From an uncultured Anaerolineales bacterium (GTDB lineage Bacteria; Chloroflexota; Anaerolineae; Anaerolineales; JABWBV01), in the NCBI GenBank assembly GCA_964489525.1, contig CAZAYY010000010.1, forward strand, positions 68,934 to 132,933: a DNA stretch of 64,000 bases, in the 5' to 3' direction. How positions within the stretch are numbered: the stretch's first letter is position 1; each line of letters opens with the position of its first letter. This document shows positions 48,410 to 64,000 of the stretch, one piece after another. The notes below the pieces were generated by a model, which did not search any database, was not told the DNA's origin, and saw only the letters and a list, made by a program, of their open reading frames with translations. The translations under genes and the position numbers were made by a program.

Positions 48410-50644
48410 TTACGGGCGAGTCAGGGTAGTCACGTCGCCGCCCATGGCTTCGATGGAGTCATACAAAACCTGAGCAACGTACTTGGCGTTGTGGGTGAAA
48501 GCGCCCGGGTCCTTCTGGTAGTACTGGTAGTTGTATGCAGCCTTGAGCAGGTCGGGGGTAAAGGCATTGAAGCTGATTGCCCGGCCGCTATCGTTCAGAT
48601 CGGCAACGCCATCGCCATCCACATCCAGGAAGAAATACGGATAGGCGTGAGAATCATACAGAATGCCGGTGCCTTTCTCGGTGGCGTAGGCCCGCATGGC
48701 GTCGTACAGTAGGGCAGACAGGCTGTCCAGTTCGGCTTTGATGCCTTCGGCTACATCGCCATCACCGTCATAGTCGTTTTCATCGGCGCCGCGATAGGAG
48801 TAGATATCCTGCGGGTTGGTTTCGGTACGGTGACAATCGGCGCACTCATCCACCTCAATTTCGAGGGCATGGACATTGTGGCATTCGGCGCATTTCACCA
48901 CCGGGTGGGGGGATTGACCGACATATTCTTTGCCAGCGAACTGGTAGGCACCCTGGACATCACCACCGAAAATGGTCGCGCCAGCTGCGAAGTAGTGGAT
49001 GTTGGAGAAGCGAATCGAGGCATCAATCGTGCCGGGGTCTTTGCTTCCCAAAGCCTGGTTCACGGTCACAGTCGAGGAACGACCCTGGTGGCAGAGCAAG
49101 CAGGTGTTGGAGCTGTCGGCAACGTTCTTGCCATCGGCATCCTGGGCAAAACTGACGACCTTGCCAGAGGGGAAGGTGACCGAATTAACCGTGTAGAGGG
49201 AGGGCCATTCTTCGCTGTTATGGCAGGTGGTGCACATAAAGCCGTTGCTGAGCGGGGCAGCAACATTGACGCCCTCTTTAATGAACTGAGGCAGGCCAGT
49301 GGCACTGTGGCACTTGGCGCAACGCCCTGGAACCTCACCATCGGCATCCCAATCGCGGAAAGGCATGGTGCTGCCAGCAAAGTGGCCGGGGTCAATGCGG
49401 TGCATGGCGCTCATATCAATCGGCGCAGCCACAGCGCTGTTCAGGTCTTCCATGGAGTCATACATCAATTGAACCAGGTACTTGGCATTGTGGGCAAAGG
49501 CACCGGGATCTTTGACACTGAGCTGGTAGTTGTAGGCAGCCCGCAGCAAGCGCGGTGTCCAGGCAGGGTAACCTACTTTGCGGCCTTCGGCGTTGGTATC
49601 AGCAGCGCCGTCGCCATCGGCATCCTGAAAGAAGTACGGGTAAGAGGAAGAATCATAGACAATACCAGTGCCAGCAACTTCGGAGGCATAGGCACGGATC
49701 AGGACGTAGAGTGCCTCTTGCATGGTTTCGAGTTCAGCAGCGATGCCTTCGGCCACATCGCCATCGCCATCATAGTCGGCCAGGGAGCCAAACATGCGGA
49801 TGGCTTTCAAATCTTCCACGCTGGTAACGCCTTCGTGACAATGGGCGCAGCTTTCAACCTCCACTTCCAGGGTGTGGGGGTTGTGGCAGCTAATGCAGGT
49901 ATCGAAACCTTCCACATGGCGGAACTGAATATCATACATCTTGCCATCATATTCGTAGCCACCCTTGGCCTGGGTGCCATACAGGGTTGCGCCAGCGGGG
50001 TAGTAGTGGATGTTGATAAAGCCCAGGCTGGAGGTGCTGCCATCGGCATTGGTGATTGCGGCGGGCACGGCATCAGGAGCTTCCACGCCGCCAAAGCGCT
50101 CAATGGCAGCGTTCACACTCACGGTAGACGCGCGACCCTGGTGACATTCCATACAGCGGGAAGCATCGCCAAGACCGGTCAATTCAATGCCGGAGGGGAA
50201 GACCACGCTGTCTTTCACAGCGGTGACGGAGTTGTGGCAGGCCACGCAGGTAACGCCCATGGCGGCGGGAGCGTGGGCAGCATCCACTTTTCCGGCCTCA
50301 GAGCCATCCAGGCCGAGGAAATCCAGGTATCCATCAGCAGTGTGGCACTTGGCGCAGGATGTCGGCACTTCGCCGCTGCCATCCCAGTAGCGGAAGGCAG
50401 GTGCAGCCGCATCCGCGTGCCCGGAGGTCATCCAGGCTTCAAAGAAGGGCATATCGGGGCCAGGTTCGGGGGTAATGATCACCTCAACGATTTTTTCTTT
50501 CTCCACCACCTGGGTTTGAACGACGACGCGCGTCACTTCAACCTCGACGGTTTCGATCACTGGTTCGGCCTGGCAGCCCGCAACCAGCAGGGCAAAGCCC
50601 GCTAACGCAAGAAATATGAACATAAATTTTTTGATTTGCTTCAC
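48410..50644 (-). CDS. decahaem c-type cytochrome lipoprotein with internal two-fold duplication
   Basis: GTG start at 50644 with AGGAGG 6 nt upstream. Lipobox FALLVAGC. Ten CxxCH motifs: CAKCH, CVACH, CMECH, CISCH, CAHCH, CAKCH, CTTCH, CLLCH, CAECH, CADCH. Four DxDGDG motifs. Confidence 0.9.
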   Translation of the reverse strand: MKQIKKFMFIFLALAGFALLVAGCQAEPVIETVEVEVTRVVVQTQVVEKEKIVEVIITPEPGPDMPFFEAWMTSGHADAAAPAFRYWDGSGEVPTSCAKCHTADGYLDFLGLDGSEAGKVDAAHAPAAMGVTCVACHNSVTAVKDSVVFPSGIELTGLGDASRCMECHQGRASTVSVNAAIERFGGVEAPDAVPAAITNADGSTSSLGFINIHYYPAGATLYGTQAKGGYEYDGKMYDIQFRHVEGFDTCISCHNPHTLEVEVESCAHCHEGVTSVEDLKAIRMFGSLADYDGDGDVAEGIAAELETMQEALYVLIRAYASEVAGTGIVYDSSSYPYFFQDADGDGAADTNAEGRKVGYPAWTPRLLRAAYNYQLSVKDPGAFAHNAKYLVQLMYDSMEDLNSAVAAPIDMSAMHRIDPGHFAGSTMPFRDWDADGEVPGRCAKCHSATGLPQFIKEGVNVAAPLSNGFMCTTCHNSEEWPSLYTVNSVTFPSGKVVSFAQDADGKNVADSSNTCLLCHQGRSSTVTVNQALGSKDPGTIDASIRFSNIHYFAAGATIFGGDVQGAYQFAGKEYVGQSPHPVVKCAECHNVHALEIEVDECADCHRTETNPQDIYSYRGADENDYDGDGDVAEGIKAELDSLSALLYDAMRAYATEKGTGILYDSHAYPYFFLDVDGDGVADLNDSGRAISFNAFTPDLLKAAYNYQYYQKDPGAFTHNAKYVAQVLYDSIEAMGGDVTTLTRP

Positions 50645-50780
50645 AATCCACCTCCTAAAATGGATAAAGTGTGCAAGGCCTGGTAAGCGTTTTTTGAAAA
50701 ATAACCGGATGGGGTATGTTGGTTTCGGCACGCCTGCCAGGCCGTTTCCGGTTATTCTGTTTTTTGGCTGGTGGACAAAC

Positions 50781-51122
50781 TTATGCTTTCAAAATGTCAA
50801 CCAGGTCTTCAATTTTTCCTACGGGGAGGTTCTCGCTGGACACAACCTGGATTGTGTCTTGCTGCGAGTTCAGCCGCAGGATTTTCAAAGCCGGGTTTGA
50901 AAACATCAGTTCGCTCAGCGAACACAACTGCAAGGCTTCTGGGTCATGGGCATCCGTGATTACGGCGCTGGGGGCGCACTGATGGATACGGGCTGCAGCA
51001 TCAGCATCAAACGGATTCACCAGGCAAACCTCAATTTGCTGAGGAAATTGCTGCAAGCGCCGGGCAATTCCTTCGGCAAACAACGAGTGATTGGATAAGA
51101 TGACAACCGTTTTTACTGACAT
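50781..51122 (-). CDS. small protein with degenerate receiver-like (pseudo-receiver) pattern
   Basis: Start at ATG 51122 (MSVKTVVILSNHSLFAEGIARRL...). Alternating beta/alpha pattern like CheY, but the acidic pocket DD is replaced by SN. The assignment is weak. Confidence 0.45.
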   Translation of the reverse strand: MSVKTVVILSNHSLFAEGIARRLQQFPQQIEVCLVNPFDADAAARIHQCAPSAVITDAHDPEALQLCSLSELMFSNPALKILRLNSQQDTIQVVSSENLPVGKIEDLVDILKA

Positions 51123-51357
51123 ACAATACACCAAAACAAAAGCCACACACAGCTTTCAACAGGATTATATTAATAGAATATGAGCCGTTTGGGTATCCTC
51201 CCTTCGCGCCAAAACGGGTGTCATTAAAGATAGGTGAAAAAAAGCACAACTAACCAATAGTATTAATTGTAAATTCATCGAAAGATTGTAAAAACTTAGC
51301 CTTAAGGGTTAAATCAGGGGGGTTTTGGAGGGATTTTGGCCGGTTTTTCAAAACAGG

Positions 51358-51392
51358 ATAAATGTCCCCTGAAAACCGGGGCAAATGCCCTG
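51358..51392 (+). promoter_or_regulatory. 35-bp inverted-repeat motif copy A (AAATGTCCCC-N8-GGGGCAAATG), 34 nt upstream of the kinase gene
   Basis: 26/35 ungapped identity with 63495-63529. Shares the TGTCC(C)...(G)GGACA inverted repeat and a TGAAAA loop. Confidence 0.5.
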
Positions 51393-51426
51393 TTAGAAAT
51401 GCGGGTTTTATCTTAAAATCATATTA

Positions 51427-52941
51427 ATGTACGGGCTTAATCTGACCATTGTCTACTTTTTTTACGGCCTGGCTTTTTTTACCATGGGCGTGATTGTGCT
51501 GCTGGAGCGCGACCGTGGCTCAGACCAACGCCTGCGGCATGCTTTAGGCCCCCTGGCCGTTTTTGGGTTAGTGCATGGCGCCAATGAGTGGTTGGAGATG
51601 TTCATGAACATTGGAACCCTGCCCACGCTCGGTTCGTGGGGGTTAATCTTGAATGGGGTTCGCCTGGGCACACTGGCATTTTCGTTTATATCTTTAACCG
51701 CCTTTGGCGCATCTTTGCTTTCACCCAACGAAACCGTGCGGCGGTACAGCCTGCTGCTGCCTGTGCTGCAAACTGCGATCTGGGGGTTTGGTGTTCTCAT
51801 CTTAAAGGACCACTATACCGCCCCGCAGCGGATTTGGGATGTGGCCGATGTGTGGAGCCGCTACACCCTGGGCGTTCCCTCGGCGGTAATTGCAGCCATA
51901 GGTTTGGTTGCCCAACAGCGCGCCTTCCGCAAAGCAGGCATGGCTCAGTTTGGGCGCGACAGCCTGTATGCCGCCCTGGCTTTTGCCTGGTATGGCTTGG
52001 TGGGGCAAATATTCGTCCACCCCAGTGCGCTGCCCCCTTCAACCCACATCAACCAGGACCTGTTTTTCTTTTATTTTGGCTTTCCTGTGCAAATTTTCCG
52101 GGCGATAACGGCAGCAATTGCCGCAGCATTTGTGGTTCGCTTTTTACGTGCTTTTGAAGTGGAACGGCAGCGCCAATTAAATGAACTGCAAGAGGCCAGG
52201 GTGGAAGAAGCCAGGCGGCGCGAAATTTTGCGCGGCCAGCTACTGCGCAGGGTAGTGATGGCGCAGGAGGCCGAACGGCAGCGAGTGGCGCGGGAACTGC
52301 ACGACGAAACCGGCCAGGCGCTGACCGCAATCGGCCTGGGGCTGCGCGGCGTAACCAACTCCATGTCCTCCAACCCCGAACAGGCCGCTCAAAAAATGCG
52401 CCAGATTGAATTGATGGCCTCTCGCTCGCTGGATGAACTGCGCCACCTGATTGCCGACCTGCGCCCCTCGCACCTGGACGAATTGGGCCTGCGCGCCACC
52501 CTGCGTTGGTATTTTGGCGAGGTGCAGGCTCGCACAAAACTCCAGGTCCACCTGGAAGTTTTAGGAGATGAAGTTAACCTGCTGCCCGAAGTGCGGATCG
52601 CACTCTATCGCATCATCCAGGAATCCATCACCAACACCATCAAACATGCCCAGGCCAGCGAAATTAACGTCAAACTTGCCTATTTGCCCGCTGCTGTTCA
52701 AGCGACCATTGAAGACAACGGCCAGGGGTTCGACATGCGCAAACTGCAGCAGCCAGGCATTTATTCCTGGGGGCTGTTAGGGATGCAGGAGCGTACCTCA
52801 CTGCTTGGCGGCCAGTTTAACCTGGTTTCCTGGCCAGGCGAAGGAACCCGCATCAGTGTTACACTGCCTTACCAACCGCAGGCATTGGTAGAAAACCTGC
52901 TAGGAGATGAAGACCATGAGCACCAGAATTCTGTTGGTTGA
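51427..52941 (+). CDS. sensor histidine kinase (HisKA_3/NarL-partner type) with polytopic membrane sensor domain
   Basis: About 7 TM helices in the first 240 aa. RVARELHDETGQALTAI (H-box) and HATPase_c (EDNGQGF, GLLGMQER). Confidence 0.88.
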   Translation: MYGLNLTIVYFFYGLAFFTMGVIVLLERDRGSDQRLRHALGPLAVFGLVHGANEWLEMFMNIGTLPTLGSWGLILNGVRLGTLAFSFISLTAFGASLLSPNETVRRYSLLLPVLQTAIWGFGVLILKDHYTAPQRIWDVADVWSRYTLGVPSAVIAAIGLVAQQRAFRKAGMAQFGRDSLYAALAFAWYGLVGQIFVHPSALPPSTHINQDLFFFYFGFPVQIFRAITAAIAAAFVVRFLRAFEVERQRQLNELQEARVEEARRREILRGQLLRRVVMAQEAERQRVARELHDETGQALTAIGLGLRGVTNSMSSNPEQAAQKMRQIELMASRSLDELRHLIADLRPSHLDELGLRATLRWYFGEVQARTKLQVHLEVLGDEVNLLPEVRIALYRIIQESITNTIKHAQASEINVKLAYLPAAVQATIEDNGQGFDMRKLQQPGIYSWGLLGMQERTSLLGGQFNLVSWPGEGTRISVTLPYQPQALVENLLGDEDHEHQNSVG

Positions 52942-53566
52942 TGACCACGCCGTAATCCGCATGGGACTGCGCATGCTGCTGGAGGGGGAAGAAGACATTG
53001 AAATTGTGGGTGAAGCCGACTCCGCAAGGGAAGCGCTGCAATTTGTAAGCAAAACCCAACCCGATGTAATTTTGATGGATGTGAATCTGCCCGATAAATC
53101 TGGCATTGATGTCACCAGGGCGATCAAAGCCCAATGGCCGAAAATTGCCATTGTGGCCCTGACCATTCACGAAGACCAGGAATACTTTTTTAAAATGCTC
53201 CAGGCAGGCGCCAGCGGTTATGTCCCCAAACGGGCTGCGCCGGAAGAACTGCTCACGGCCATTCGCGCCGCTGCCCAGGGGGAGGTCTATTTATACCCAT
53301 CTATGGCCAAGCTGCTGGTGCAAGATTACCTCTCCCCAGATCAACAAGAAAGCAACAAAACCGCCCTGGACGGGCTGACCGACCGGGAGCAGGATGTTCT
53401 GGCACGCCTGGCCGATGGCGAGAGCGTGGGCGAAATTGCCGATGCTCTGTCCATCAGCCCGAAAACGGTTGCCCGCCACCGTGAAAACATCATGCGCAAA
53501 TTGAATTTGCACTCTCGAGGCGAATTGGTGCGCTATGCCATCCGCAAAGGGATTGTTGAGGCGTAA
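52916..53566 (+). CDS. NarL/LuxR-family response regulator
   Basis: ATG 52916 is preferred because AGGAG lies 9 nt upstream (the track start is 52907). RILLVDDHAVIR, DVILMDVNLPD, and the LuxR HTH LTDREQDVLARLADGESVGEIADALSISPKTVARH. Confidence 0.92.
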   Translation: MSTRILLVDDHAVIRMGLRMLLEGEEDIEIVGEADSAREALQFVSKTQPDVILMDVNLPDKSGIDVTRAIKAQWPKIAIVALTIHEDQEYFFKMLQAGASGYVPKRAAPEELLTAIRAAAQGEVYLYPSMAKLLVQDYLSPDQQESNKTALDGLTDREQDVLARLADGESVGEIADALSISPKTVARHRENIMRKLNLHSRGELVRYAIRKGIVEA

Positions 53567-53635
53567 GCGGCAGCAGGTGTGTAGTTTGTCGTGGGGGAAT
53601 TTGAGGGAAACCACAAAGGCCATGATTAAAAACAA

Positions 53636-53668
53636 ATCCTAAAGGTTTTCGAAACCTTTAGGATTTTT
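53636..53668 (+). terminator. intrinsic terminator after the response regulator gene
   Basis: ATCCTAAAGGT / ACCTTTAGGAT stem, 7-nt loop, TTTTT. Confidence 0.65.
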
Positions 53669-53705
53669 CTTAGGGTTTTCCCCGGCATGGGGTAAACAAC
53701 CCATT

Positions 53706-53745
53706 TGTGAATATGTTCACAAACCCACTTGTGACTACTTTCACA
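53706..53745. promoter_or_regulatory. two tandem perfect CRP/FNR-family-type sites TGTGA-N6-TCACA
   Basis: Site 1 at 53706-53721 (TGTGAATATGTTCACA) and site 2 at 53730-53745 (TGTGACTACTTTCACA), 24 bp centre to centre. Each sits in a 24-bp direct repeat unit CCCA(T/C)TTGTGA...TTCACAA(A/G). Confidence 0.5.
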
Positions 53746-53966
53746 AGCCCATTTTGGCTTGCCAACCATGGGTAACAAACCCCTTTTTAATGTCCCACTA
53801 ATGGGACTTTTTTGATTAAAAAGATTGGGTAAACACCGAATTTACCAAACCCTCCTTCCCTCGTACACTCAAGCTAGAACATTCGAAGAACGGCTGTGAA
53901 GGCAAAAGCCAATTCACCGTTATTTGAAAGCAAAAGTGCATGGACTGATCCATGCGGAGGTGTGAA

Positions 53967-54083
53967 ATGTCTGAAATCTTAATCCCAATTGTGCTGCTGT
54001 TCTTCTTCATCCTGCGGATTGTCATCCCCGCTGGATTGTTGCTGGCAATTGGTACCTGGCTGCAGAAGCGCTTTGCTTACTAA
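53967..54083 (+). CDS. 38-aa hydrophobic peptide (single TM helix)
   Basis: Below the ORF-track size cut-off. GGAGG 7 nt upstream of the ATG. MSEILIPIVLLFFFILRIVIPAGLLLAIGTWLQKRFAY. First gene of the plus-strand cytochrome operon. Confidence 0.45.
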   Translation: MSEILIPIVLLFFFILRIVIPAGLLLAIGTWLQKRFAY

Positions 54084-54110
54084 AGCCAAACCAAACAAAA
54101 GGAGGCCGGT

Positions 54111-54467
54111 ATGAACGAGTTGTTTGAAATTATCTCTCTGCTGATGGGATTTATGCTGCGGTTAGGGCTGCCCATTGTGGTGACGGTTCTGGGCATCATG
54201 CTGTTGCAACGGCTGGATTCCCGCTGGCAGCTCGAAGCAGAAAAGAACACCACCCTGGCAAACCTCAAACCGGGCGACTACCTGAACAAAGTTCACTGCT
54301 GGGATATTCGCGAGTGCTCCCCTGAAACCCGCTCGCAGTGTTCTGCCTATCAACAACCCGATGTTCCCTGCTGGGAAAGCCACCGAGTCGGTGGGAAATT
54401 ACAAGAATCTTGCCGCAGCTGCGCAATTCGCAAACGCGTGGTTGCCATTTCAACTGTCAATCTATAA
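54111..54467 (+). CDS. membrane-anchored Cys-rich protein (six Cys, two C-W motifs; two-CW-like domain)
   Basis: AGGAGG RBS. N-terminal TM helix, then VHCWDIRECSPETRSQCSAYQQPDVPCWESHRVGGKLQESCRSC. Confidence 0.65.
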   Translation: MNELFEIISLLMGFMLRLGLPIVVTVLGIMLLQRLDSRWQLEAEKNTTLANLKPGDYLNKVHCWDIRECSPETRSQCSAYQQPDVPCWESHRVGGKLQESCRSCAIRKRVVAISTVNL

Positions 54468-54482
54468 CACAGGAGGCATTCC

Positions 54483-57492: not shown

Positions 57493-57520
57493 TTGACTTT
57501 GCCTCTCATTTTCTCCTCCT

Positions 57521-57556
57521 TCCAAACCTGCCGTGCAAAATTGCACGGCAGGTTTG
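57521..57556. terminator. 16-bp perfect hairpin between convergent operons
   Basis: CCAAACCTGCCGTGCA-AAAT-TGCACGGCAGGTTTGG. Only a weak T-run follows. Confidence 0.5.
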
Positions 57557-57758
57557 GTTATAAGGGAATCGGTAAAAATGGTTTGTAACTGCGTTTTTTT
57601 TTACCGGAAATATTTGCGGATTTGTGCGAAGGGTGGTTTGGAACCTTAATCCTGCTGGTACGGGCGCAAGGTCAGGCTGGCAACTCACAGCACACTCGCC
57701 CCTCCACCCCTCACCGCCCAAACGATTAAGCCCGATTTGTCGTGCGCCAATTAAACGA

Positions 57759-57799
57759 TTCTGGCCGGTCGGGGTTCAAAACCCACAAACCGGCCAGAA
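57759..57799 (-). terminator. hairpin downstream of the minus-strand cytochrome operon
   Basis: TTCTGGCCGGT ... ACCGGCCAGAA (11-bp arms), 35 nt after the stop at 57834. Confidence 0.45.
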
Positions 57800-57833
57800 A
57801 ATCAATGGCATTTTAGGGAGAATTTATCCGGGA

Positions 57834-59561
57834 TTATTTTTCTGGCGCGCCTGCTTGAATCCAGGCCTGCAATGCTTCCAACTCATCGCCTAACATTTTG
57901 CCAAAATGGGGGGTAGATTGGGTTTGGCGAGTGAAAACCGGGCTGGCAGCAGGGTCACCCGGAACCAGGCCAGGCCCACTGCTTCCGCCTGCCAATGCGC
58001 CCGTATAAGTACTCAGGTCCAGGCTGCCTTCCGGATCTATCCCGCTATGACAGAAGATGCAGCGTCCATCAAAAACCGCCTTAAAAGTATCATCATAGGT
58101 TTGAGGGGCGCCAGGAATCAGGAAGGGGCTGGTGTTGAGCAAAATGTAGAGCTGTTGGTCCAAAATGGCAGTAAGCTCAGGCGCATTCAGGCCAATATAT
58201 TCCCAATCAGCGCCATGGCAGGCTTCATTACCACAGAAAGAGGTATCAATGGGTGGTTTGCCTTCCAACTTGGTGTAGAGAATTTTCGGGTCGCTGGGTG
58301 TGTGGCAGGCGGCACACGAGGAGTCAATCGCCTTACCATGCAGAGCGATCCAACTGCTGTGCGTATGGGATGCGGGCTGCTGTCCGGTGACAATTTCAAT
58401 ATTGCTGGTGAGTGCGCCGGGTTTGGAAATCACAGGTATGGCATGGCAAAGGTTGCACTCTAACCGGATGGCTTCCTGGGTAGAGGTGAGGTGTTTGCCA
58501 TCATGGCAGCGGAAGCAGCCAGGATCATCTTTGTGCCCCAGGTTGTTCGGGTGGGTGTCCCAATCAATAAGCTGGTCAGGAAAAACAATTTGGTTGTAGA
58601 TATCCTTCAAGGTAAAGACTGCCTGGTCAATTTCAGCCTGGCGGCTGGCATAAACTTCTGGGTAGTTCGCCTGGTAGTAAGCCGGCAGAGAATCAATCGC
58701 ATCGATGGCATCTGCGGCTTGTTCGTAAGATTTGTCAATGGCTTCTACGGCCAGTTGGTAAATGAAGGGCAAATCGGTGGAAATGAGCTGCTTTTTGATT
58801 GCCTCTGAAACCGCCTCTTCAGGTGTTGGCATGGAATGGGTTACTCGATTGTGGCAGGTAATGCAGTCCATCCGCTGCAGCGTGGCCCCGGCAACGTCGT
58901 TTGGTGTCAGCCCAGAAGCCAGGTCATAATATTCTTTGATGGTGCCATCCGGGTTGACAACGCGCACATAAGGAATCTCTTGCTCGCGGTCATCGGTAGC
59001 AAGGTAATAAACCTCACTTTCGATATGCCAGTGAATCCCAAGGCCCAGGCCTTCGCGCTGGCTTCCACCGCCTGTTTTCAGCACCAGGAAAGTGCTTTGG
59101 GGGGTGTTGGCTTCGTTATTCTGGTAGCTTCGCAGTTCCCGCAGGCTGTCATCGGAAAATTTTTCAGGGAAGTGACAGGTTTCGCAAGTCTCACGGGCCG
59201 GGCGCATGTTTTTGGCGTGGATTGGGTATTCGTAATCCTGTGTCACCATCACAACGACATGGCGCAGGTCGCCTGCTTTACGTGAAATACGGGTAGCGAT
59301 GAAGTCGCGTCCAATGTGACATTCAACACATTGAACCCGGGCATGCGGAGAACGCAGGTAAGCACTATACTCTGGCGGCATGGTATGGCAGGAAGTTCCA
59401 CAAAATTCGGTGGAATTGGTGTAATCCCAAACATAGGCACCCGCAGTCAGCATGGTCAGCGTGAGCACACCCAAAACTGCAAAGGGCATCAGGCGCAGGG
59501 CGACCGGTGTGCCCGGTGGGGGCAGAAAGAACCGTTTAATTGCAGTCCAAATAACCTTCAT
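57834..59561 (-). CDS. membrane-anchored multihaem cytochrome: NapC/NirT-like N-terminus plus further haem domains and a C-terminal PSCyt-like monohaem domain
   Basis: ATG 59561 with AGGAGG 5 nt upstream. N-terminal TM helix. Seven CxxCH motifs plus CGTSCH (CX3CH) and CGNEACH (CX4CH). C-terminal CIFCHSG...LDLSTY...GGSSGPGLVPGDP...WIQAGAPE. Confidence 0.88.
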   Translation of the reverse strand: MKVIWTAIKRFFLPPPGTPVALRLMPFAVLGVLTLTMLTAGAYVWDYTNSTEFCGTSCHTMPPEYSAYLRSPHARVQCVECHIGRDFIATRISRKAGDLRHVVVMVTQDYEYPIHAKNMRPARETCETCHFPEKFSDDSLRELRSYQNNEANTPQSTFLVLKTGGGSQREGLGLGIHWHIESEVYYLATDDREQEIPYVRVVNPDGTIKEYYDLASGLTPNDVAGATLQRMDCITCHNRVTHSMPTPEEAVSEAIKKQLISTDLPFIYQLAVEAIDKSYEQAADAIDAIDSLPAYYQANYPEVYASRQAEIDQAVFTLKDIYNQIVFPDQLIDWDTHPNNLGHKDDPGCFRCHDGKHLTSTQEAIRLECNLCHAIPVISKPGALTSNIEIVTGQQPASHTHSSWIALHGKAIDSSCAACHTPSDPKILYTKLEGKPPIDTSFCGNEACHGADWEYIGLNAPELTAILDQQLYILLNTSPFLIPGAPQTYDDTFKAVFDGRCIFCHSGIDPEGSLDLSTYTGALAGGSSGPGLVPGDPAASPVFTRQTQSTPHFGKMLGDELEALQAWIQAGAPEK

Positions 59562-59687
59562 CACAACCTCCTTGTAAGAACACAGTTTGTGAAAAAAATC
59601 GCAACCTGTCCCAGGAACGCTGAGAGCCTGCCTGCGGCAGACTCTCAGCCCTCCCCGATTAAATTTTCAACAGCCTTTGAACGACTG

Positions 59688-60851: not shown

Positions 60852-60852
60852 G

Positions 60853-62040
60853 CTACTTTTCCTCCGAATGCGCATCTGTATGACTGTGTTGATATCCACC
60901 GCGAATATAGCGCCGGTAGAAATCTGAAACAACAAAGATGCTCATGAAGCCCAGCACGCCAGGAATGAACAGCTTGTAGAACAGGTCCACCAGATAAACA
61001 ATGGTATGGTTTTCCAAATCAGGTTCGTAGTGACTGAGCCAGGAATCGGAAAAATTTGGGGTGGCATCGGGGTGGCAGTTCTGGCACGTGGAGAGGATAT
61101 TTTGCTTGATTAGCTCGACAGATGCTGCGTCGCCCGGGTCAACAATATTATGGACACCATGGCAGTCAATACATACCGGTTTGTTGGTTTCCTGGTCAGG
61201 GGTGGTCTTTTCAAAAATGGTGACGGTCGTCCCGTGAAAATCGGCAATGTAGGTATCGAACACGTTGGTGTTGATATCGTAACGTGCCATCATCTCTTCG
61301 TCCGTGTGGCACTCCGCACAAATGGTGGGCGAGTGGAGTTTGAAGCCCTCCTGAACAATGGGACCGACATTCCCGTGATTATCGTGGCAGTCGGCGCAGG
61401 TTGGTACATCGGGATTAAAGTCTTCCACCAGTGCGGTACCGTGGACACTATCTTTGTACAGGTCATAGATGCTGCTGTGGCACTTCTGGCAGGCAAGGGC
61501 GATTTTGGCGCGAGAGCCGCCAAATTCCTCAATGCTGTGGGAACCGTGACAATCAGAGCAAACGGCAGCGTTCTGGTCTCCTTCAGCCAGCAGAATAGCG
61601 TGGTCGCCAGCTTTGTAAATATCATAAACCGGCTGGTGGCAGGTGCCGCAGGTTTGGTTCATTCGAATGGTTGCCTCGCGGGCGGTTTGCGGGGTGAAAT
61701 CATCGTGGGGGTAGCCAGTGATGTCGGTATGGCACTGCACACACGCATACTTCAGGCGTCCGTGAATGGAAGTTTTATAGAGAACGGAATCAACGGTCAG
61801 ATTCAAAACCTCACCGCTGGGCAGCGGCATGTACATCTCCGGCTGCTCGTGGCATTCCAGGCATTGATCGTTGCTCATGGGCACCACACCAATGGGCGGA
61901 GGGGGGGTGGAAGATGGGCTATCCGCCGCCAGTGTTGGGGCGGCTGAAAGCGCCAGCAGAACAATCGCTGTGAGCAGCGCAGCAACCAGCCAGGCCCAAC
62001 TGGGTGGGGAAAGCTTTCCATGGGTTTGCTTAGGCGTCAT
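60853..62040 (-). CDS. nonahaem c-type cytochrome with signal peptide and C-terminal TM anchor
   Basis: Nine CxxCH motifs: CLECH, CVQCH, CGTCH, CSDCH, CQKCH, CADCH, CAECH, CIDCH, CQNCH. ATG 62040 is preferred (AAGGAG 7 nt upstream). The alternative ATG 62073 overlaps the upstream stop (TAATG). Confidence 0.85.
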   Translation of the reverse strand: MTPKQTHGKLSPPSWAWLVAALLTAIVLLALSAAPTLAADSPSSTPPPPIGVVPMSNDQCLECHEQPEMYMPLPSGEVLNLTVDSVLYKTSIHGRLKYACVQCHTDITGYPHDDFTPQTAREATIRMNQTCGTCHQPVYDIYKAGDHAILLAEGDQNAAVCSDCHGSHSIEEFGGSRAKIALACQKCHSSIYDLYKDSVHGTALVEDFNPDVPTCADCHDNHGNVGPIVQEGFKLHSPTICAECHTDEEMMARYDINTNVFDTYIADFHGTTVTIFEKTTPDQETNKPVCIDCHGVHNIVDPGDAASVELIKQNILSTCQNCHPDATPNFSDSWLSHYEPDLENHTIVYLVDLFYKLFIPGVLGFMSIFVVSDFYRRYIRGGYQHSHTDAHSEEK

Positions 62041-62072
62041 AACACGCTCCTTAGGTTCGTAGTGGGGTTCCA

Positions 62073-63353
62073 TTACGAATCGGGGGTTGCAGTTGGTTCA
62101 GGTGCCGGAGTGGGCTCGGGGGTGGGTTGTGGCGGGGTGTGGTAGCCACGAGCAGCGGTTGCCAACATGTCCATATCCTTTTCAGTCGCCAATGGACCAT
62201 GGCAGTGTTTGCAGGCATAGTCCAGGGTGATGTAGGGCATTGCATATTCCCCATCGGCGCTGAACTGAGCAGCATTCGGGTTGGGGTTAATCGAAAAGAC
62301 ATGCGAACTCAGGTCACCGGTAAAGCGATCGAGGTTACCAACAGCCGAAAGACCGGTGGGCGGCATATGGCAATCGGTGCAGAACAGGGCAAAGTGTTTA
62401 CGAACAGCGGAATATGCGGCCTGTTCCCAGTGGCAGGTATCACAGGTTTGTGTGATGCCAGCGTTGGGGTTAAGCGTAACATCCGTGTAAACGCTGCTGG
62501 AGTGAGGATCGTGGCAGCCAATACAACCAATCGCAAAGTGTTCATTGTTGTGAAGCTGGTCATACTGCACATACTGTTCCGAAAAACCATCGGCAGCATC
62601 GATGCGAGAGTCGCCGCGTGAGTGGCATTCTCCACACGCCTGGGAACTGCGGTCAACTTCCATGGCAACGCCATAAGGGTCAGCCACATGCAGGCTGCCC
62701 GGTCCATGACAGGCTTCGCACTGCACACCTTCAAAGGCCCAGGTACCAATCAGGCCGGGTTTGTCATCCTGGAAGCCCCTGGTGCTGTAGCCAGTGGTAT
62801 GGCATTGCCCACAGCTGAAGGCCAGGTTTTCCGGATTACCATGGTAGGGTGCCCAACTGGGATTCAGTTTTAGGGTTGAATTGGCAAGGTTGTATTGGCT
62901 GAGGTAATCGGCAACGCCAGTCTGCCCGGGCGGGTTGGCAATCAGATAGCCATCCTGGTTGACAAACTGGGCTTTCCAGGCAAAACCACCAATCACATAG
63001 GCGATATCATCCCACGAATACCCTTCGGGGGGATTGGGTACGCCGCCAGTCTGCCCGTCATATGGGAAAACCGGGGCAGCGCCTTCGATTTTGGTGAGGT
63101 TATAGGGGTGACCGGAAAGCTGGTATTTGGTGTAAGCATCCTCATGACACTCAGCACACTTACCCACCCCGACATATTCCCTGCTCACGACAGCGTCATC
63201 GCCCGGAGGGCCGGCAGGCCCTTGTGGCCCGGCGGGGCCTGCTGGACCGATAGGCCCAGGTTCAGGGGCCGATTGCGTTCCGGCACAACCGACCAGCAAT
63301 AAGGCCAGCACACCAAGAAGGGCGATCATCATTAATGTTTGTTTAAATTTCAT
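62073..63353 (-). CDS. octahaem c-type cytochrome lipoprotein with short collagen-like G-X-Y tract and Pro/Thr-rich C-terminus
   Basis: AAGGAGAA RBS. Lipobox LLLVGC. GPIGPAGPAGPQGPAGPPG. Eight CxxCH motifs: CAECH, CGQCH, CEACH, CGECH, CIGCH, CDTCH, CTDCH, CKHCH. Confidence 0.88.
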   Translation of the reverse strand: MKFKQTLMMIALLGVLALLLVGCAGTQSAPEPGPIGPAGPAGPQGPAGPPGDDAVVSREYVGVGKCAECHEDAYTKYQLSGHPYNLTKIEGAAPVFPYDGQTGGVPNPPEGYSWDDIAYVIGGFAWKAQFVNQDGYLIANPPGQTGVADYLSQYNLANSTLKLNPSWAPYHGNPENLAFSCGQCHTTGYSTRGFQDDKPGLIGTWAFEGVQCEACHGPGSLHVADPYGVAMEVDRSSQACGECHSRGDSRIDAADGFSEQYVQYDQLHNNEHFAIGCIGCHDPHSSSVYTDVTLNPNAGITQTCDTCHWEQAAYSAVRKHFALFCTDCHMPPTGLSAVGNLDRFTGDLSSHVFSINPNPNAAQFSADGEYAMPYITLDYACKHCHGPLATEKDMDMLATAARGYHTPPQPTPEPTPAPEPTATPDS

Positions 63354-63438
63354 CAGGCTTTTCTCCTTCTGGACGCCAAAAGATTAATGTAAGGTGAAGT
63401 GCAAGTAATTATACATATATTTCCAATTCCGGGTAGTA

Positions 63439-63529
63439 TGACAAATGTCCCGCTGAAGAAGGGACATTTGTCATGAAAAAACAGGACGAAAATGGCAAAT
63501 GTCCTGTGAAAATGGGGACAAATGGACTG
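63439..63529. promoter_or_regulatory. two further copies of the TGTCCC/GGGACA inverted-repeat motif in the divergent cytochrome-operon/ccmE intergenic region
   Basis: Perfect palindrome TGACAAATGTCCC-N9-GGGACATTTGTCA (63439-63473). The 35-bp copy at 63495-63529 is 26/35 identical to 51358-51392. An extra CAAATATTTG palindrome lies at 63531-63540. Confidence 0.5.
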
Positions 63530-63584
63530 GCAAATATTTGAATATATTGATATGATGGTGTTTACAATCAAATACGTGGAGAGG

Positions 63585-63613
63585 ATGGGCGAGATGCTTT
63601 CTCGCCCATTTTT
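63585..63613 (+). terminator. terminator-like hairpin in the ccmE upstream region
   Basis: ATGGGCGAG-N7-CTCGCCCAT followed by TTTT. About 140 nt upstream of ccmE. Strand-specific: the T-run is on the plus strand only. Confidence 0.4.
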
Positions 63614-63753
63614 CGTCAACCCAAATGGTTTCTAAACGAACCTTAATCAATACAACAGGGAGGGAAAACCCCTGACGGTATAATCGGTTGTGAGGCGAAA
63701 GTCTTTCCACAAAAACACGCAATGAGTAACTATCTTATTTTTTGGAGGCAAGT

Positions 63754-64000
63754 GTGAACCAGACAACCTATCACCAAAACGCTACTGCAGGCAGAACCAA
63801 GTTCATTTTCGGTGGGGCGTTGATTCTTGCAGCAGTCGTTTACCTGATTGTTTCTTCTACCGCAGCCAACTCACAATACTATGTGACGGTGGATGAGTTG
63901 ATTGACCGGACTTCAAGCGGTATCAACCGTGAACTGCGCGTTTCGGGCGCAGTGGTGGGCGAAACCATCAGCTATGACCCACAAACCTTAACCCTGCGCT
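63754..64000 (+). CDS. ccmE: cytochrome c maturation haem chaperone CcmE (System I), N-terminal part; runs off the right edge
   Basis: Own translation from GTG 63754 (GGAGG 8 nt upstream): MNQTTYHQNATAGRTKFIFGGALILAAVVYLIVSSTAANSQYYVTVDELIDRTSSGINRELRVSGAVVGETISYDPQTLTLR. A TM helix followed by the YY.T..E.....G...RV.G.V pattern is typical of CcmE. Confidence 0.75.
   Translation, partial: MNQTTYHQNATAGRTKFIFGGALILAAVVYLIVSSTAANSQYYVTVDELIDRTSSGINRELRVSGAVVGETISYDPQTLTLR

What the first reader, a model, noticed from the sequence alone, without database searches (positions are those of the whole stretch)
48410..64000. Six-gene, ~45-haem cytochrome c island with three different quinol-dehydrogenase modules, its own two-component system, and no recognisable terminal reductase or porin
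Seen in the sequence: haem-binding motif counts are 10 (48410-50644), 8 (54483-55385), 7 canonical plus CX3CH and CX4CH (57834-59561), 1 (59688-60851), 9 (60853-62040) and 8 (62073-63353). Three mechanistically different membrane modules that normally talk to the quinone pool co-occur within 10 kb. They are an NrfD/PsrC-like protein with a Tat-exported 4x[4Fe-4S] protein, a 4-TM b-type cytochrome fused to a c-haem domain, and a NapC/NirT-like TM tetrahaem N-terminus. Every cytochrome is tethered by a lipobox (LVAGC, LLVGC) or by a single N- or C-terminal TM helix. I see no beta-barrel gene, no molybdopterin subunit, no CxxCK (NrfA-type) motif and no copper-site protein. An HK/NarL-type RR pair sits inside the island and ccmE starts at its edge. 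Inference: this is a dedicated electron conduit between the quinone pool and an external, insoluble or otherwise unknown acceptor or donor, in a probably monoderm Chloroflexi-like cell. The gene set does not match Mtr/Pcc/Omc, ACIII (no ActB molybdopterin-like domain, no ActDEF), Nrf, Hao or Otr operons as I know them. One of the octahaem proteins could itself be catalytic.
Basis: partly seen in the sequence, partly recalled or inferred. Interest (0 to 1): 0.8.

Follow-up and report, generated by a model that had tools for sequence, protein, structure and literature searches.

The report
Chloroflexota multihaem electron-export gene island
A conserved 15-kb gene island of an Anaerolineae-type Chloroflexota bacterium joins three different quinol-oxidising membrane modules to two surface-tethered multihaem lipoproteins related to the iron-reducing cytochromes of Gram-positive bacteria, which makes it the best current candidate for how this abundant but little-studied phylum passes respiratory electrons out of the cell.

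Summary
Six ORFs between 48410 and 63353 carry 43 CxxCH motifs plus one CX3CH and one CX4CH, and no other ORF in the 64-kb window has two or more. The domain calls, membrane tethers, HisKA_3/NarL two-component pair and a truncated ccmE are all confirmed.

The parts are not orphans.
- I is an octahaem lipoprotein whose closest relatives are OcwA and OmhA, the surface terminal reductases of monoderm iron reducers, and MccA. This rests on profile E 2.8e-27 and on Foldseek matching only these three families.
- Each pentahaem repeat of A is the same module (hhalign 98%).
- F has the ImcH architecture: a CX3CH motif next to the TM helix.
- H plus G is a split CbcL-type bc protein.
- C-D-E is a cytochrome/NrfC/NrfD module of the Nrf/Hmc/Nhc kind.

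The whole layout recurs in Anaerolineales, Ardenticatenaceae and Promineifilaceae contigs. One contig has almost the same order, including two small accessory ORFs. In related contigs the far side of I holds a ccm operon, not a reductase.

Best reading: a regulated menaquinol-to-cell-surface electron conduit. A Nrf/Mcc-like reductase for a soluble substrate is not excluded. No paper I found describes the ensemble. I rate it a new variant of a known kind.

The parts
48410..50644 (-). A: decahaem lipoprotein (744 aa, lipobox LVAGC), a tandem duplication of a pentahaem module followed by a haem-free region (predicted helical from sequence only) with DYDGDGD loops
   Evidence: 10 CxxCH. The two halves are 46% identical, E 2e-93. 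hhalign aligns repeat haems 1-5 with I haems 2-6 at 98.2%, E 4.5e-14. More than 4700 homologues exist, including 3-repeat and Big_2-bearing forms. No solved relative by profile search.
50781..51146 (-). B: 121-aa ORF upstream of A; membership doubtful
   Evidence: No Pfam or NCBIfam hit. No homologue in any related locus.
51352..51394 (.). Imperfect palindrome AACAGGATAAATGTCCC-N9-GGGGCAAATGCCCTGTT just upstream of HK; candidate operator
   Evidence: It has the same arm and the same 9-nt spacing as the palindrome upstream of I.
51427..52941 (+). Sensor histidine kinase with a multi-TM N-terminal domain and a HisKA_3/HATPase_c core
   Evidence: at least 4 TM segments by hydropathy. Orthologues lie next to I homologues in several phyla.
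52907..53566 (+). NarL/LuxR-type response regulator (REC + GerE)
   Evidence: It is 53-59% identical to regulators adjacent to the island in L015, L016, L021, L053 and L049.
53629..53671 (.). Strong hairpin after RR, terminator-like on both strands
53705..53746 (.). Two tandem TGTGA-N6-TCACA palindromes (CRP/FNR-type consensus) upstream of the C-D-E operon
   Evidence: Assigning them to a CRP/FNR-family regulator is inference.
53967..54083 (+). 38-aa hydrophobic single-TM small ORF, first gene of the C-D-E operon
   Evidence: A 39-aa counterpart sits at the same position in L083.
54111..54467 (+). x: 118-aa protein with an N-terminal TM helix and a Cys-rich C-terminal domain (7 Cys); no known family
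   Evidence: No Pfam or NCBIfam hit. It is 40% identical, E 5e-28, to the gene at the same position in L083 and is also found in L021.
54483..55385 (+). C: octahaem cytochrome c with a signal peptide and a C-terminal TM anchor; partner of D/E
   Evidence: Co-linear C-D-E occurs in L001, L019, L021, L022, L053 and L083.
55422..56222 (+). D: Tat-exported 4x[4Fe-4S] NrfC/DsrO/HmcB-type ferredoxin
   Evidence: Fer4_11 and TAT_signal. NCBIfam DsrO scores 237 bits, above its cutoff of 200; QrcC scores 167, below 400.
56233..57492 (+). E: NrfD/PsrC-type integral membrane quinol-interacting subunit (the ORF opens at 56140; the likely start is the ATG at 56233)
   Evidence: PF03916, 116 bits. QrcD 225 and HmcC 152 bits are both below cutoff. 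8 TM segments.
57834..59564 (-). F: ImcH-type (NapC/NirT/NrfH-like) membrane multihaem quinol dehydrogenase with 1 TM helix, CX3CH next to the TM helix, 7 CX2CH, CX4CH and a C-terminal PSCyt1 monohaem domain
   Evidence: It is 35-39% identical to 3-TM, 500-540-aa proteins with the canonical ImcH layout in Planctomycetota and Bacteroidota loci. Architecture criteria come from PMC6295460.
59688..60851 (-). G: FdnI-type dihaem cytochrome b (4 TM) plus a fifth TM helix plus a PSCyt1 monohaem c domain
   Evidence: PF01292 and PF07635. His22, His64, His172 and His187 are conserved in 20-21 of 21 homologues. Its PSCyt1 domain is 41% identical to that of F, E 8e-24.
60853..62040 (-). H: nonahaem cytochrome c with a C-terminal TM anchor; the partner of G (H stop overlaps G start)
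   Evidence: H+G is homologous end to end with single-chain 9-11-haem c + b proteins of CbcL architecture (L063, L076, L041).
62073..63353 (-). I: octahaem lipoprotein (lipobox LLVGC) on a collagen-like (G-X-Y)x6 stalk with a Pro/Thr-rich tail; OcwA/OmhA/MccA clade
   Evidence: AF2 model pLDDT 89.5. Foldseek against the PDB: OcwA E 3.8e-12, MccA 7.5e-12, OmhA 3e-10, and nothing else.
63438..63474 (.). Perfect 14-nt inverted repeat ATGACAAATGTCCC-N9-GGGACATTTGTCAT with extra half-sites at 63494 and 63517; candidate operator of the I-H-G-F operon
   Evidence: Similar palindromes lie upstream of A in L003 and of I in L010.
63754..64000 (+). 5' part of ccmE, diverging from I (start of a System I cytochrome c maturation operon)
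   Evidence: PF03100, 22 bits, truncated. Complete ccmE-F-H and further ccm genes lie at this position in L082, L083 and L014.

Best explanation
The island encodes a regulated respiratory electron conduit from the membrane quinol pool to cytochromes held outside the cytoplasmic membrane of an Anaerolineae-class Chloroflexota cell. It is most likely used to reduce extracellular or poorly soluble acceptors such as Fe(III)/Mn(IV) minerals, electrodes, humics or partner cells, and it may be reversible.

Shown by sequence, structure prediction and synteny:
1. Three alternative quinol-oxidising entry modules are present. F is ImcH-type, with a NrfH-like haem next to its single TM helix. G/H is a split CbcL-type bc module: a dihaem b with all four FdnI-type His ligands, plus a 9-haem subunit anchored by a C-terminal helix. 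C-D-E is an octahaem c plus a Tat-exported 4x[4Fe-4S] protein plus a NrfD-type subunit.
2. F and G carry the same C-terminal monohaem PSCyt1 domain.
3. Two lipoproteins, I (8 haems) and A (10 haems), are built from the haem module of OcwA/OmhA/MccA. I sits on a collagen-like stalk found only in Chloroflexota members of its family.
4. A HisKA_3/NarL pair, related palindromes upstream of HK and of the I operon, and the ccm operon are co-located and co-inherited.

Inferred:
- Quinol is oxidised on the outer face of the membrane.
- Electrons leave through the PSCyt1 domains and the H and C haem chains. They hop to I and A, which reach across the wall zone on their stalks and deliver electrons to the acceptor.
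- The three entry modules serve different redox-potential windows or energy yields, as ImcH, CbcL and CbcBA do in Geobacter.
- The kinase/regulator pair induces the I-H-G-F operon, and a CRP/FNR-type factor controls C-D-E.
For: - Motif counts and topology and domain calls.
- I against solved structures: OcwA E 7e-18 with the single sequence and 2.8e-27 with the profile; OmhA 4e-20; MccA 6e-18.
- The confident AF2 model of I (pLDDT 89.5) matches only OcwA, MccA and OmhA in the PDB.
- The A repeat is homologous to I haems 2-6.
- F shows the ImcH hallmarks listed in PMC6295460 and is 35-39% identical to canonical 3-TM forms.
- H and G are homologous to the two halves of fused 9-11-haem c+b proteins, and the four b-haem His residues are conserved.
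- F and G share the PSCyt1 domain.
- Synteny: I-H-G-(F)-A with C-D-E and HK/RR recurs in about 25 Chloroflexota loci. L083 has near-identical order, including x and the small ORF.
- The stalk has 5-15 G-X-Y triplets in Chloroflexota homologues and none in other phyla. Firmicute homologues carry a Cu_amine_oxidN1 domain and A relatives carry Big_2 domains, both of which I know as cell-surface domains.
- The distal-pocket dyad is not conserved among I's nearest relatives (QY, HN, GG, NY, HH). This argues against a fixed catalytic site in this subgroup.
- No reductase flanks the island in related contigs.
- Ardenticatena maritima, from a sister lineage, reduces Fe(III), exchanges electrons with electrodes and displays a surface multihaem cytochrome (PMC5808234).
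Against: - There is no functional, expression or localisation data for any of these proteins.
- The I family also occurs in diderm phyla (Nitrospirota, Planctomycetota, Bacteroidota, Desulfuromonadales), without a stalk and often beside an ImcH-like gene or a two-component pair. That pattern is equally typical of a periplasmic substrate-specific reductase.
- Most I-family members keep OcwA's His-His distal pocket, and OcwA itself turns over nitrite and hydroxylamine (PMC6703420).
- Membership of F in the ImcH family and of G/H in the CbcL family rests on architecture and on intermediaries. I could not compare them directly with the Geobacter proteins.
- The direction of electron flow cannot be read from sequence.
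- The cell-envelope type of the host is assumed, not shown.
Confidence: 0.58

Rival explanations
1. This is a Nrf/Mcc-like respiratory system for a soluble substrate. On this reading I (and perhaps A) is a catalytic multihaem reductase for a nitrogen or sulfur oxyanion or a related small molecule. It binds the substrate at a five-coordinate haem 2. It is fed by an NrfH-like partner (F) and an NrfCD/MccCD-like module (D/E), and it is induced by a substrate-sensing two-component system.
For: - I belongs to the NrfA/ONR/MccA/OcwA superfamily.
- I is as close in fold to the sulfite reductase MccA as to OcwA (TM 0.57 against 0.48).
- The I family keeps the OcwA distal 'HH-x-QY' motif in most members.
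- I pairs with an ImcH/NrfH-like gene in Planctomycetota and Bacteroidota, and with HK/RR in several phyla.
- From my own knowledge, the Wolinella mcc cluster likewise combines an octahaem enzyme, an FeS protein, a NrfD protein and a two-component system.
- OcwA reduces nitrite and hydroxylamine (PMC6703420).
Against: - The window's I has Gln-Tyr instead of His-His, and its closest relatives vary at this dyad.
- There is no CxxCK motif and no CX15CH/CX17CH motif. No conserved Cys lies outside the haem motifs and the lipobox, so there is no Cu site.
- I lacks the C-terminal three-helix bundle of NrfA and OcwA.
- A soluble-substrate reductase does not explain 27 further haems in A, H and C, three parallel quinol modules, or the wall-spanning stalks.
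Confidence: 0.22
2. This is the same hardware running inward. On this reading it takes up electrons from Fe(II), cathodes, reduced humics or a syntrophic partner and delivers them to the quinone pool, for lithotrophy or DIET-type electron uptake.
For: - CbcL/MtoC/MtrH-type proteins occur in both Fe(III) reducers and Fe(II) oxidisers (PMC6295460).
- FdnI-type cytochromes b classically reduce quinone with electrons coming from the outer face of the membrane (my own knowledge of Fdn-N).
- A. maritima performs cathodic as well as anodic EET (PMC5808234).
Against: - ImcH homologues have so far been linked only to quinol oxidation in reducers (PMC6295460).
- OcwA and OmhA are reductases.
- Nothing in the window points to a lithotrophic electron sink dedicated to this island.
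Confidence: 0.12
3. The island is a chance juxtaposition of separate respiratory operons that share only their need for the neighbouring ccm maturation genes, with no common pathway.
For: - The island contains at least three transcription units in different orientations.
- Individual loci carry different subsets: A is missing in L083, and H/G is missing in L001.
Against: - The co-location of I, H, G, F, A, C-D-E and HK/RR recurs across orders of Anaerolineae in varying gene orders. That pattern indicates selection for linkage.
- F and G share a PSCyt1 domain.
- HK and the I operon share a palindrome.
Confidence: 0.08

Closest known systems
Monoderm extracellular electron transfer of Thermincola potens and Carboxydothermus ferrireducens (OcwA, PDB 6i5b; OmhA, PDB 6qvm)
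   Same: I is their closest characterised relative by sequence and fold. It shares the c554-like N-terminal four-haem module, the beta-sheet insert and the position of the distal 'HH-x-QY' motif. There is no porin, and the host is presumed to have a single-membrane envelope.
   Different: I has 8 haems, not 9 or 11. It has no C-terminal three-helix bundle and no second His-His site, and the window copy has Gln-Tyr at the first site. It is anchored by a lipid plus a collagen-like stalk rather than by SLH or wall-binding domains. Identity is only about 18-19% over the structure alignment. I found no description of the Thermincola and Carboxydothermus genes lying in one island with three quinol modules.
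Geobacter sulfurreducens inner-membrane quinol oxidases ImcH, CbcL and CbcBA
   Same: F has NapC/NirT homology, the atypical CX3CH next to the membrane helix and seven CX2CH motifs, as ImcH does (PMC6295460). H+G reproduces the CbcL parts list of 9 c-haems plus an FdnI/HydC-type dihaem b. Several parallel quinol oxidases serve one outward pathway.
   Different: F has 1 TM helix, not 3 (as reported for the Anaerolinea thermophila homologue), plus an extra CX4CH motif and a PSCyt1 domain. The CbcL-type unit is split into two genes and its b subunit carries PSCyt1. Unlike CbcBA, all four b-haem His residues lie in G and none in the anchor of H. The genes are clustered here, whereas in Geobacter (my own knowledge) they are dispersed. 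There are no periplasmic Ppc-type shuttles and no porin-cytochrome complexes.
Wolinella Mcc and Shewanella Sir octahaem sulfite reductase systems (MccA, PDB 4rkm)
   Same: This is the best TM-score match for the I model (0.57). MccA is an octahaem, and its system also has an accompanying FeS protein (MccC-like D), a NrfD-type subunit (MccD-like E) and a two-component regulator.
   Different: I has no CX15CH/CX17CH eighth haem motif, no Cu-binding Cys pair and no MccB or MccL. D/E are transcribed with their own octahaem C, not with I. I is roughly half the size of MccA.
Cytochrome/NrfC/NrfD modules (NrfBCD, HmcABC/NhcABC, QrcBCD, DsrJOP, Aeromonas NetBCD)
   Same: C-D-E combines a multihaem c, a Tat-exported 4x[4Fe-4S] protein and a cofactor-less NrfD-type membrane subunit. 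D passes the NCBIfam DsrO cutoff, and E's best hits are QrcD and HmcC.
   Different: No molybdopterin-like QrcB/ActB and no DsrMK or HmcDEF are present. E is far below every equivalog cutoff. C is an octahaem with a C-terminal anchor. The operon begins with two small membrane proteins of unknown family.
Nrf system (NrfHA)
   Same: A NrfH-like membrane cytochrome (F, TIGR03153 64.7 bits) lies in one operon with a member of the NrfA superfamily (I). I-F adjacency is conserved across phyla.
   Different: There is no CxxCK haem. F is four times the size of NrfH and falls below the NrfH cutoff of 134 bits. I lacks the NrfA helices and catalytic triad context.

Membership tests
OcwA/OmhA cell-surface terminal reductases (clade 3 of the NrfA/c554/MccA superfamily, PMC9250108) | Significant sequence and fold similarity to OcwA or OmhA | tested here: met
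   phmmer 7.3e-18. Profile search 2.8e-27 for OcwA and 4.1e-20 for OmhA. Foldseek 3.8e-12, TMq 0.48.
OcwA/OmhA cell-surface terminal reductases (clade 3 of the NrfA/c554/MccA superfamily, PMC9250108) | Nine (OcwA) or eleven (OmhA) haems with two five-coordinate haems, each under a His-His motif | tested here: not met
   I has eight CxxCH motifs. At the first HH position the window's I has Q260-Y261, although most family members have HH. I did not see a counterpart of the second HH (OcwA 'EVHHPH') in the alignment. Haem coordination itself is not testable here.
OcwA/OmhA cell-surface terminal reductases (clade 3 of the NrfA/c554/MccA superfamily, PMC9250108) | C-terminal three-helix bundle | tested here: not met
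   Only about 40 residues follow the last haem motif. The model shows two short helices, 377-385 and 394-401.
OcwA/OmhA cell-surface terminal reductases (clade 3 of the NrfA/c554/MccA superfamily, PMC9250108) | Exposure on the cell surface and reduction of Fe(III) oxides, electrodes or shuttles | not testable with these tools
   Only indirect evidence is available: a lipobox, a collagen-like stalk restricted to Chloroflexota, and a Pro/Thr-rich tail.
MccA octahaem sulfite reductase | Eight haems with a MccA-like fold | tested here: met
   8 CxxCH. Foldseek 7.5e-12, TMq 0.57. Profile search 5.8e-18.
MccA octahaem sulfite reductase | CX15CH or CX17CH motif for haem 8, and a Cys pair binding Cu at the active site (PMC9250108) | tested here: not met
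   The last motif is the ordinary CKHCH. The only invariant Cys residues are those of the eight CxxCH motifs and the lipobox.
ImcH (PMC6295460; bioRxiv 10.1101/2023.05.03.539133) | NapC/NirT/NrfH homology of the membrane-proximal haem domain | tested here: met
   PF03264, 53.5 bits, above its cutoff of 24.1. TIGR03153 NrfH, 64.7 bits.
ImcH (PMC6295460; bioRxiv 10.1101/2023.05.03.539133) | Atypical CX3CH motif directly after the TM region, plus 5-9 CX2CH motifs | tested here: met
   CGTSCH lies at residue 55, after the TM helix at 21-39, and there are 7 CX2CH motifs. The feature is conserved in all 12 Chloroflexota homologues and in the 3-TM homologues of other phyla.
ImcH (PMC6295460; bioRxiv 10.1101/2023.05.03.539133) | Three N-terminal TM helices | tested here: not met
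   F has one TM helix. The paper notes the same exception for the Anaerolinea thermophila homologue.
ImcH (PMC6295460; bioRxiv 10.1101/2023.05.03.539133) | Direct sequence similarity to G. sulfurreducens GSU3259 | not tested
The only link is 35-39% identity to 3-TM, 500-540-aa, CX3CH-bearing proteins from Planctomycetota and Bacteroidota.
CbcL/MtrH/MtoC | N-terminal multihaem c domain (nine haems in CbcL) plus a C-terminal FdnI/HydC-type dihaem b membrane domain | tested here: met
   H has 9 CxxCH. G hits PF01292 at 59.9 bits, and His22, His64, His172 and His187 are conserved. H and G align with the two halves of fused proteins in L063 (9 haems), L076 and L041.
CbcL/MtrH/MtoC | A single polypeptide with six TM helices | tested here: not met
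   The unit is split into H (C-terminal anchor) and G (4 TM helices, one more TM helix and a PSCyt1 domain), with overlapping stop and start codons.
CbcBA | A 4-TM b subunit with three His ligands, the fourth coming from the C-terminal helix of the c subunit (bioRxiv 10.1101/2021.04.15.440034) | tested here: not met
   All four candidate ligands lie in G. The anchor helix of H has no conserved His.
NrfCD-type quinol modules (Nrf, Hmc, Nhc, Qrc, Dsr) | A Tat-exported 4x[4Fe-4S] subunit plus a NrfD/PsrC membrane subunit without cofactors | tested here: met
   D has 16 Cys in four cluster motifs (read from the sequence).
Qrc / Alternative Complex III | A molybdopterin-like QrcB or ActB subunit | tested here: not met
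   No such domain occurs in any ORF of the island.
Mtr/Pcc porin-cytochrome complexes | An outer-membrane beta-barrel gene next to the cytochromes | tested here: not met
   Every ORF longer than 121 aa in 48410-64000 is assigned to another family.

The most novel reading that the evidence does not exclude
The island is the core extracellular-respiration machine of Anaerolineae-class Chloroflexota, and it represents a distinct solution for monoderm-type envelopes. Two lipid-anchored cytochrome families carry electrons away from the membrane. One is octahaem I on an invariant collagen-like stalk, possibly trimerising. The other is the tandem-pentahaem A family, which has thousands of members and no solved structure. 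Both are evolutionary offshoots of the OcwA/MccA module. They are fed through a shared PSCyt1 docking domain by ImcH-, CbcL- and NrfCD-type quinol oxidases that are tuned to different potentials and switched by a dedicated kinase/regulator pair and its operator.
Probability: 0.35. Interest if true: 0.8.

Novelty: new variant of a known kind. Interest (0 to 1): 0.6.

Why it matters
Anaerolineae are among the most abundant bacteria in sediments, aquifers, anaerobic digesters and activated sludge. They repeatedly turn up on anodes and in iron-reducing zones. Even so, the only physiological evidence for extracellular electron transfer in the phylum comes from Ardenticatena maritima, and no pathway has been defined.

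This island gives a concrete, conserved and testable parts list:
- entry modules (F, G/H, C-D-E);
- surface cytochromes (I, A);
- a regulator pair and a candidate operator;
- the maturation genes.

It also links the Geobacter-type quinol oxidases and the Gram-positive OcwA/OmhA reductases in a single system. It flags two very large uncharacterised cytochrome families (I and A) that metagenome surveys could use as markers. If the rival reading is right, the I family would instead be a widespread unknown respiratory enzyme, which would also be worth knowing.

Tried and rejected
- Exact-sequence look-ups of I, H and D to recover the 148,771-bp source contig and read beyond the window all failed. 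I used the closest syntenic contigs instead.
- The first AlphaFold run on I with 24 close homologues gave pLDDT 47 and was discarded. A 115-sequence alignment that added Nitrospirota-type relatives gave pLDDT 89.5.
- OTR membership is rejected. The single-sequence search found no hit, and the profile search gave only 3e-5. Foldseek gave E 3.3. Distant Shewanella and Ferrimonas homologues match no NCBIfam equivalog.
- CbcBA-like ligation is rejected.
- B (50781-51146) is not conserved anywhere, so I do not count it as part of the system.
- A shared 11-mer search among the three promoter regions found nothing useful. The palindrome was found by eye and then checked. Its count across the whole window is at chance level; only its clustering in promoter regions stands out.
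- Rfam found nothing in the window. The generic promoter and terminator scans were at background level.
- Literature searches pairing OcwA, ImcH/CbcL or multihaem cytochromes with Chloroflexi or Anaerolineae found no description of this cluster. They found only general notes: MHC-rich Anaerolineales (PMC7399161), one ImcH homologue in A. thermophila (PMC6295460) and cbcBA fusions in Chloroflexi (bioRxiv 10.1101/2021.04.15.440034).
- Whether A. maritima ARMA_0580 belongs to the I family could not be tested, because no sequence was available.

Full report
**1. Observation**

Translating the ORFs between 48410 and 63353 reproduces the finder's haem-motif counts exactly:
- A, 48410-50644(-): 10 CxxCH.
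- C, 54483-55385(+): 8 CxxCH.
- F, 57834-59564(-): 7 CxxCH, plus CGTSCH (CX3CH) and CGNEACH (CX4CH).
- G, 59688-60851(-): 1 CxxCH.
- H, 60853-62040(-): 9 CxxCH.
- I, 62073-63353(-): 8 CxxCH.

None of them has a CxxCK motif. No other stop-to-stop ORF of at least 60 aa in the 64-kb window carries two or more CxxCH motifs, so this is a sharply bounded island and not a chance cluster.

Hydropathy and N-terminal sequences confirm the tethers. A and I have lipoboxes. C and H have a signal peptide and a C-terminal helix. F has one N-terminal helix. G is polytopic.

Pfam and NCBIfam confirm the partner proteins:
- D is a Tat-exported 4x[4Fe-4S] protein.
- E is a NrfD-type subunit.
- The kinase has HisKA_3 and HATPase_c domains, and the regulator is REC plus GerE.
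- The ORF cut by the window end is a truncated ccmE.

Genes to the left of A are unrelated housekeeping genes.

**2. What the parts are**

*I.* This protein is not an orphan. Against all PDB sequences it hits OcwA of Thermincola potens (6i5b, E 7e-18) and OmhA of Carboxydothermus ferrireducens (6qvm). A 115-sequence family profile gives OcwA 2.8e-27, OmhA 4e-20 and MccA 6e-18, followed by weak hits to ONR, NrfA, OTR and c554.

A first AlphaFold model built from a shallow alignment failed. With the deeper alignment the model reached pLDDT 89.5 and pTM 0.81. Foldseek against the PDB then returned only OcwA, MccA and OmhA, with E 4e-12 to 3e-10 and TMq 0.48-0.57.

So I belongs to the OcwA/OmhA/MccA/c554 clade defined in PMC9250108, but it is not an orthologue of any of them:
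- It has eight ordinary CxxCH motifs.
- It has no CX15CH motif and no spare conserved Cys for a Cu site.
- It has no C-terminal three-helix bundle.

OcwA's distal 'HH-x-QY' motif over its five-coordinate haem 2 (PMC6703420) is conserved in most I-family members. In the window's copy it reads Gln-Tyr, and it varies among the nearest relatives (QY, HN, GG, NY, HH).

In Chloroflexota only, the mature protein begins with an invariant collagen-like run of 5-15 G-X-Y triplets (six in the window copy). In many members, including the window copy, it ends in a Pro/Thr-rich tail.

*A.* This protein is a tandem duplication; its halves are 46% identical, E 2e-93. Profile-profile comparison aligns its repeat haems 1-5 with I haems 2-6 (98.2%, E 4.5e-14). 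The A family is very large. More than 4700 hits were returned, including three-repeat forms and forms with Big_2 domains. It has no solved relative by sequence profile.

*F.* This protein has the hallmarks that Zhong and Shi (PMC6295460) list for ImcH. These are NapC/NirT homology, an atypical CX3CH motif directly after the membrane helix, and further CX2CH motifs. It has a single TM helix, as they noted for the Anaerolinea thermophila homologue. F is 35-39% identical to 500-540-aa proteins in Planctomycetota and Bacteroidota loci that have three TM helices followed by CX3CH. Chloroflexota versions add a CX4CH motif and a C-terminal PSCyt1 monohaem domain.

*G and H.* G is an FdnI-type dihaem cytochrome b. 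His22, His64, His172 and His187 are conserved in 20-21 of 21 homologues. G also has an extra helix and a PSCyt1 domain that is 41% identical to that of F. H is a nonahaem protein with a C-terminal anchor, and its stop codon overlaps G's start codon. H and G align with the N- and C-terminal halves of single-chain c+b proteins with 9-11 haems in other phyla. That is the architecture described for CbcL. It is not the CbcBA ligation pattern, because the anchor helix of H has no conserved His.

*C-D-E.* This is a cytochrome/NrfC/NrfD module. Its nearest NCBIfam models are DsrO, QrcC, QrcD and HmcC, but it has none of the defining extra subunits of Qrc, ACIII or Dsr.

**3. Conservation**

A scan of GTDB representative genomes with the I profile returned 80 loci. 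I called ORFs in those loci and compared them with the window proteins.

In about 25 Chloroflexota loci (Anaerolineales, Ardenticatenaceae, Promineifilaceae, Caldilineaceae, Ca. Flexifilum), I is followed by H-G, by F, or by both. A, C-D-E and an orthologous HK/RR pair are frequently present in varying orders. Examples:
- L003: I H G F A.
- L021: I H G A C D E x RR.
- L022: C D E I H G A.
- L014: RR HK I H G H G F.

Two subtypes exist. A 9-haem H goes with a G that carries PSCyt1, as in the window. A 14-15-haem H goes with a G that lacks it. There are also two I paralogue groups.

The metagenomic contig L083 has almost the window's layout: ccm operon, RR-HK, I (two copies), H, G, F, then convergent E, D, C, x and a 39-aa ORF. 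Its x is 40% identical to the window's x (E 5e-28). Its small ORF corresponds to a 38-aa hydrophobic ORF that I found at 53967-54083.

In L082, L083 and L014 the DNA on the far side of I or HK is a System I ccm operon: ccmE, ccmF, ccmH, a thioredoxin-like gene, a class-I cytochrome c gene, and in L082 also ccmABC. This answers the finder's refutation test. What lies beyond the window edge is most likely haem-maturation machinery, not a catalytic reductase. Other flanks in related loci are heterogeneous (gyrA, a P-type ATPase and others).

Outside Chloroflexota the I family is widespread. It occurs in Nitrospirota, Planctomycetota, Bacteroidota, Desulfuromonadales, Zixibacteria, Firmicutes, Methanoperedenaceae, and distantly in Shewanella and Ferrimonas. 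These copies have no stalk and often sit next to an ImcH-like gene or an HK/RR pair. No curated NCBIfam family covers them.

**4. Regulation (noticed; inference)**

- A perfect 14-nt inverted repeat, ATGACAAATGTCCC-N9-GGGACATTTGTCAT, lies upstream of I. Additional half-sites lie nearby.
- A related palindrome with the same spacing lies immediately upstream of the kinase gene.
- Similar palindromes precede A in L003 and I in L010.
- Two TGTGA-N6-TCACA palindromes precede the C-D-E operon.

**5. Mechanism**

The best-supported reading is a regulated conduit from the quinol pool to cytochromes held outside the membrane. Three alternative entry points exist: ImcH-type F, CbcL-type G/H and NrfCD-type C-D-E. 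They would hand electrons through PSCyt1 domains and anchored haem chains to lipoproteins I and A, which project from the membrane and reduce external acceptors. The parallel with Geobacter's potential-specific ImcH, CbcL and CbcBA (bioRxiv 10.1101/2021.04.15.440034 and 10.1101/2023.05.03.539133) suggests that the modules serve different redox windows.

Composition, homology and linkage are shown here. Localisation, direction, partners and substrates are inferred.

The main rival is that I is a catalytic reductase for a soluble oxyanion in a Nrf/Mcc-like system. In its favour:
- the superfamily that I belongs to;
- the family-wide His-His pocket;
- the I-F and I-HK/RR pairings in diderm phyla.

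Against it:
- the unconserved pocket in the window's subgroup;
- the absence of every catalytic signature I could test;
- the large surplus of haems;
- the stalks.

**6. Novelty**

The literature available to me notes MHC-rich Anaerolineales without porins (PMC7399161). It also notes one ImcH homologue in Anaerolinea thermophila (PMC6295460), cbcBA fusions in Chloroflexi (bioRxiv 10.1101/2021.04.15.440034), and EET with a surface multihaem cytochrome in Ardenticatena maritima (PMC5808234). I found no description of this island, of the OcwA relationship of its lipoproteins, or of the A family.

It is therefore a new, conserved combination and variant of known EET building blocks in a phylum where the pathway is unknown. 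It is not a categorically new machine.

Noticed in passing
window 63438-63474, 63494-63527 and 51352-51394; L003 6287-6311; L010 482-505: A palindrome of the form AAATGTCCC-N9-GGGACATTT lies upstream of the I operon (perfect 14-nt arms plus extra half-sites) and upstream of the kinase gene. Similar palindromes lie upstream of A and of I in two related loci. It may be the operator of the island's response regulator.
   Followed up: partly
window 53705-53746: Two tandem TGTGA-N6-TCACA palindromes (CRP/FNR-type consensus) lie upstream of the small-ORF/x/C/D/E operon. This hints at a second, global redox or carbon input.
   Followed up: no
window 53967-54083 and 54111-54467; L083 18919-19038 and 18573-18908: A 38-aa hydrophobic peptide gene and a 118-aa TM protein with a 7-Cys domain of no known family open the C-D-E operon. 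Both are conserved at the same position in L083. Their role is unknown; they might be an assembly factor, or a redox sensor carrying a metal or Fe-S site.
   Followed up: partly
window 62073-63353 (residues 31-51 of I); Chloroflexota loci L001-L023, L083: A collagen-like G-X-Y stalk follows the lipobox Cys directly. It is near-invariant in sequence, has 5-15 triplets, and occurs only in Chloroflexota members of the family. A run this short and this conserved suggests more than a passive linker, for example trimerisation, glycosylation or sorting.
   Followed up: partly
L005, L007, L083 and other Chloroflexota loci: There are two I paralogue groups. One lies next to the ImcH-like gene, with a variable distal-pocket dyad and a short stalk. 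The other lies next to a 14-15-haem H plus a G lacking PSCyt1, with a conserved His-His dyad and a long stalk. Some genomes carry both; the window carries only the first.
   Followed up: partly
L082 3068-4993; L083 1-1377; L014 481-2442: A gene of roughly 640-650 aa with two class-I cytochrome c (CBB3-type) domains, and in L082 and L083 a Zn-ribbon gene, are embedded in the ccm operon next to the island. It probably lies just beyond the window's right edge.
   Followed up: no
PMC5808234 Table 1 (Ardenticatena maritima ARMA_0580): The haem-stained, surface-immunolabelled cytochrome of A. maritima is 430 aa, has an N-terminal hydrophobic segment at 8-30 and has 7 CXXCH motifs. This matches the size and topology of I, but homology could not be tested.
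   Followed up: no
window 41084-44512 (-): A 1142-aa protein with repeated CarboxypepD_reg domains lies a few kb left of the island. It may be a cell-surface protein. No link to the island was found.
   Followed up: no
L020 6794-11014; L066 9893-13356; L056 9941-12631: These are giant fusions containing the I module: 32 haems in 1406 aa in L020, and 16 haems in L066 and L056. They show that the module is reused in much longer haem wires.
   Followed up: no
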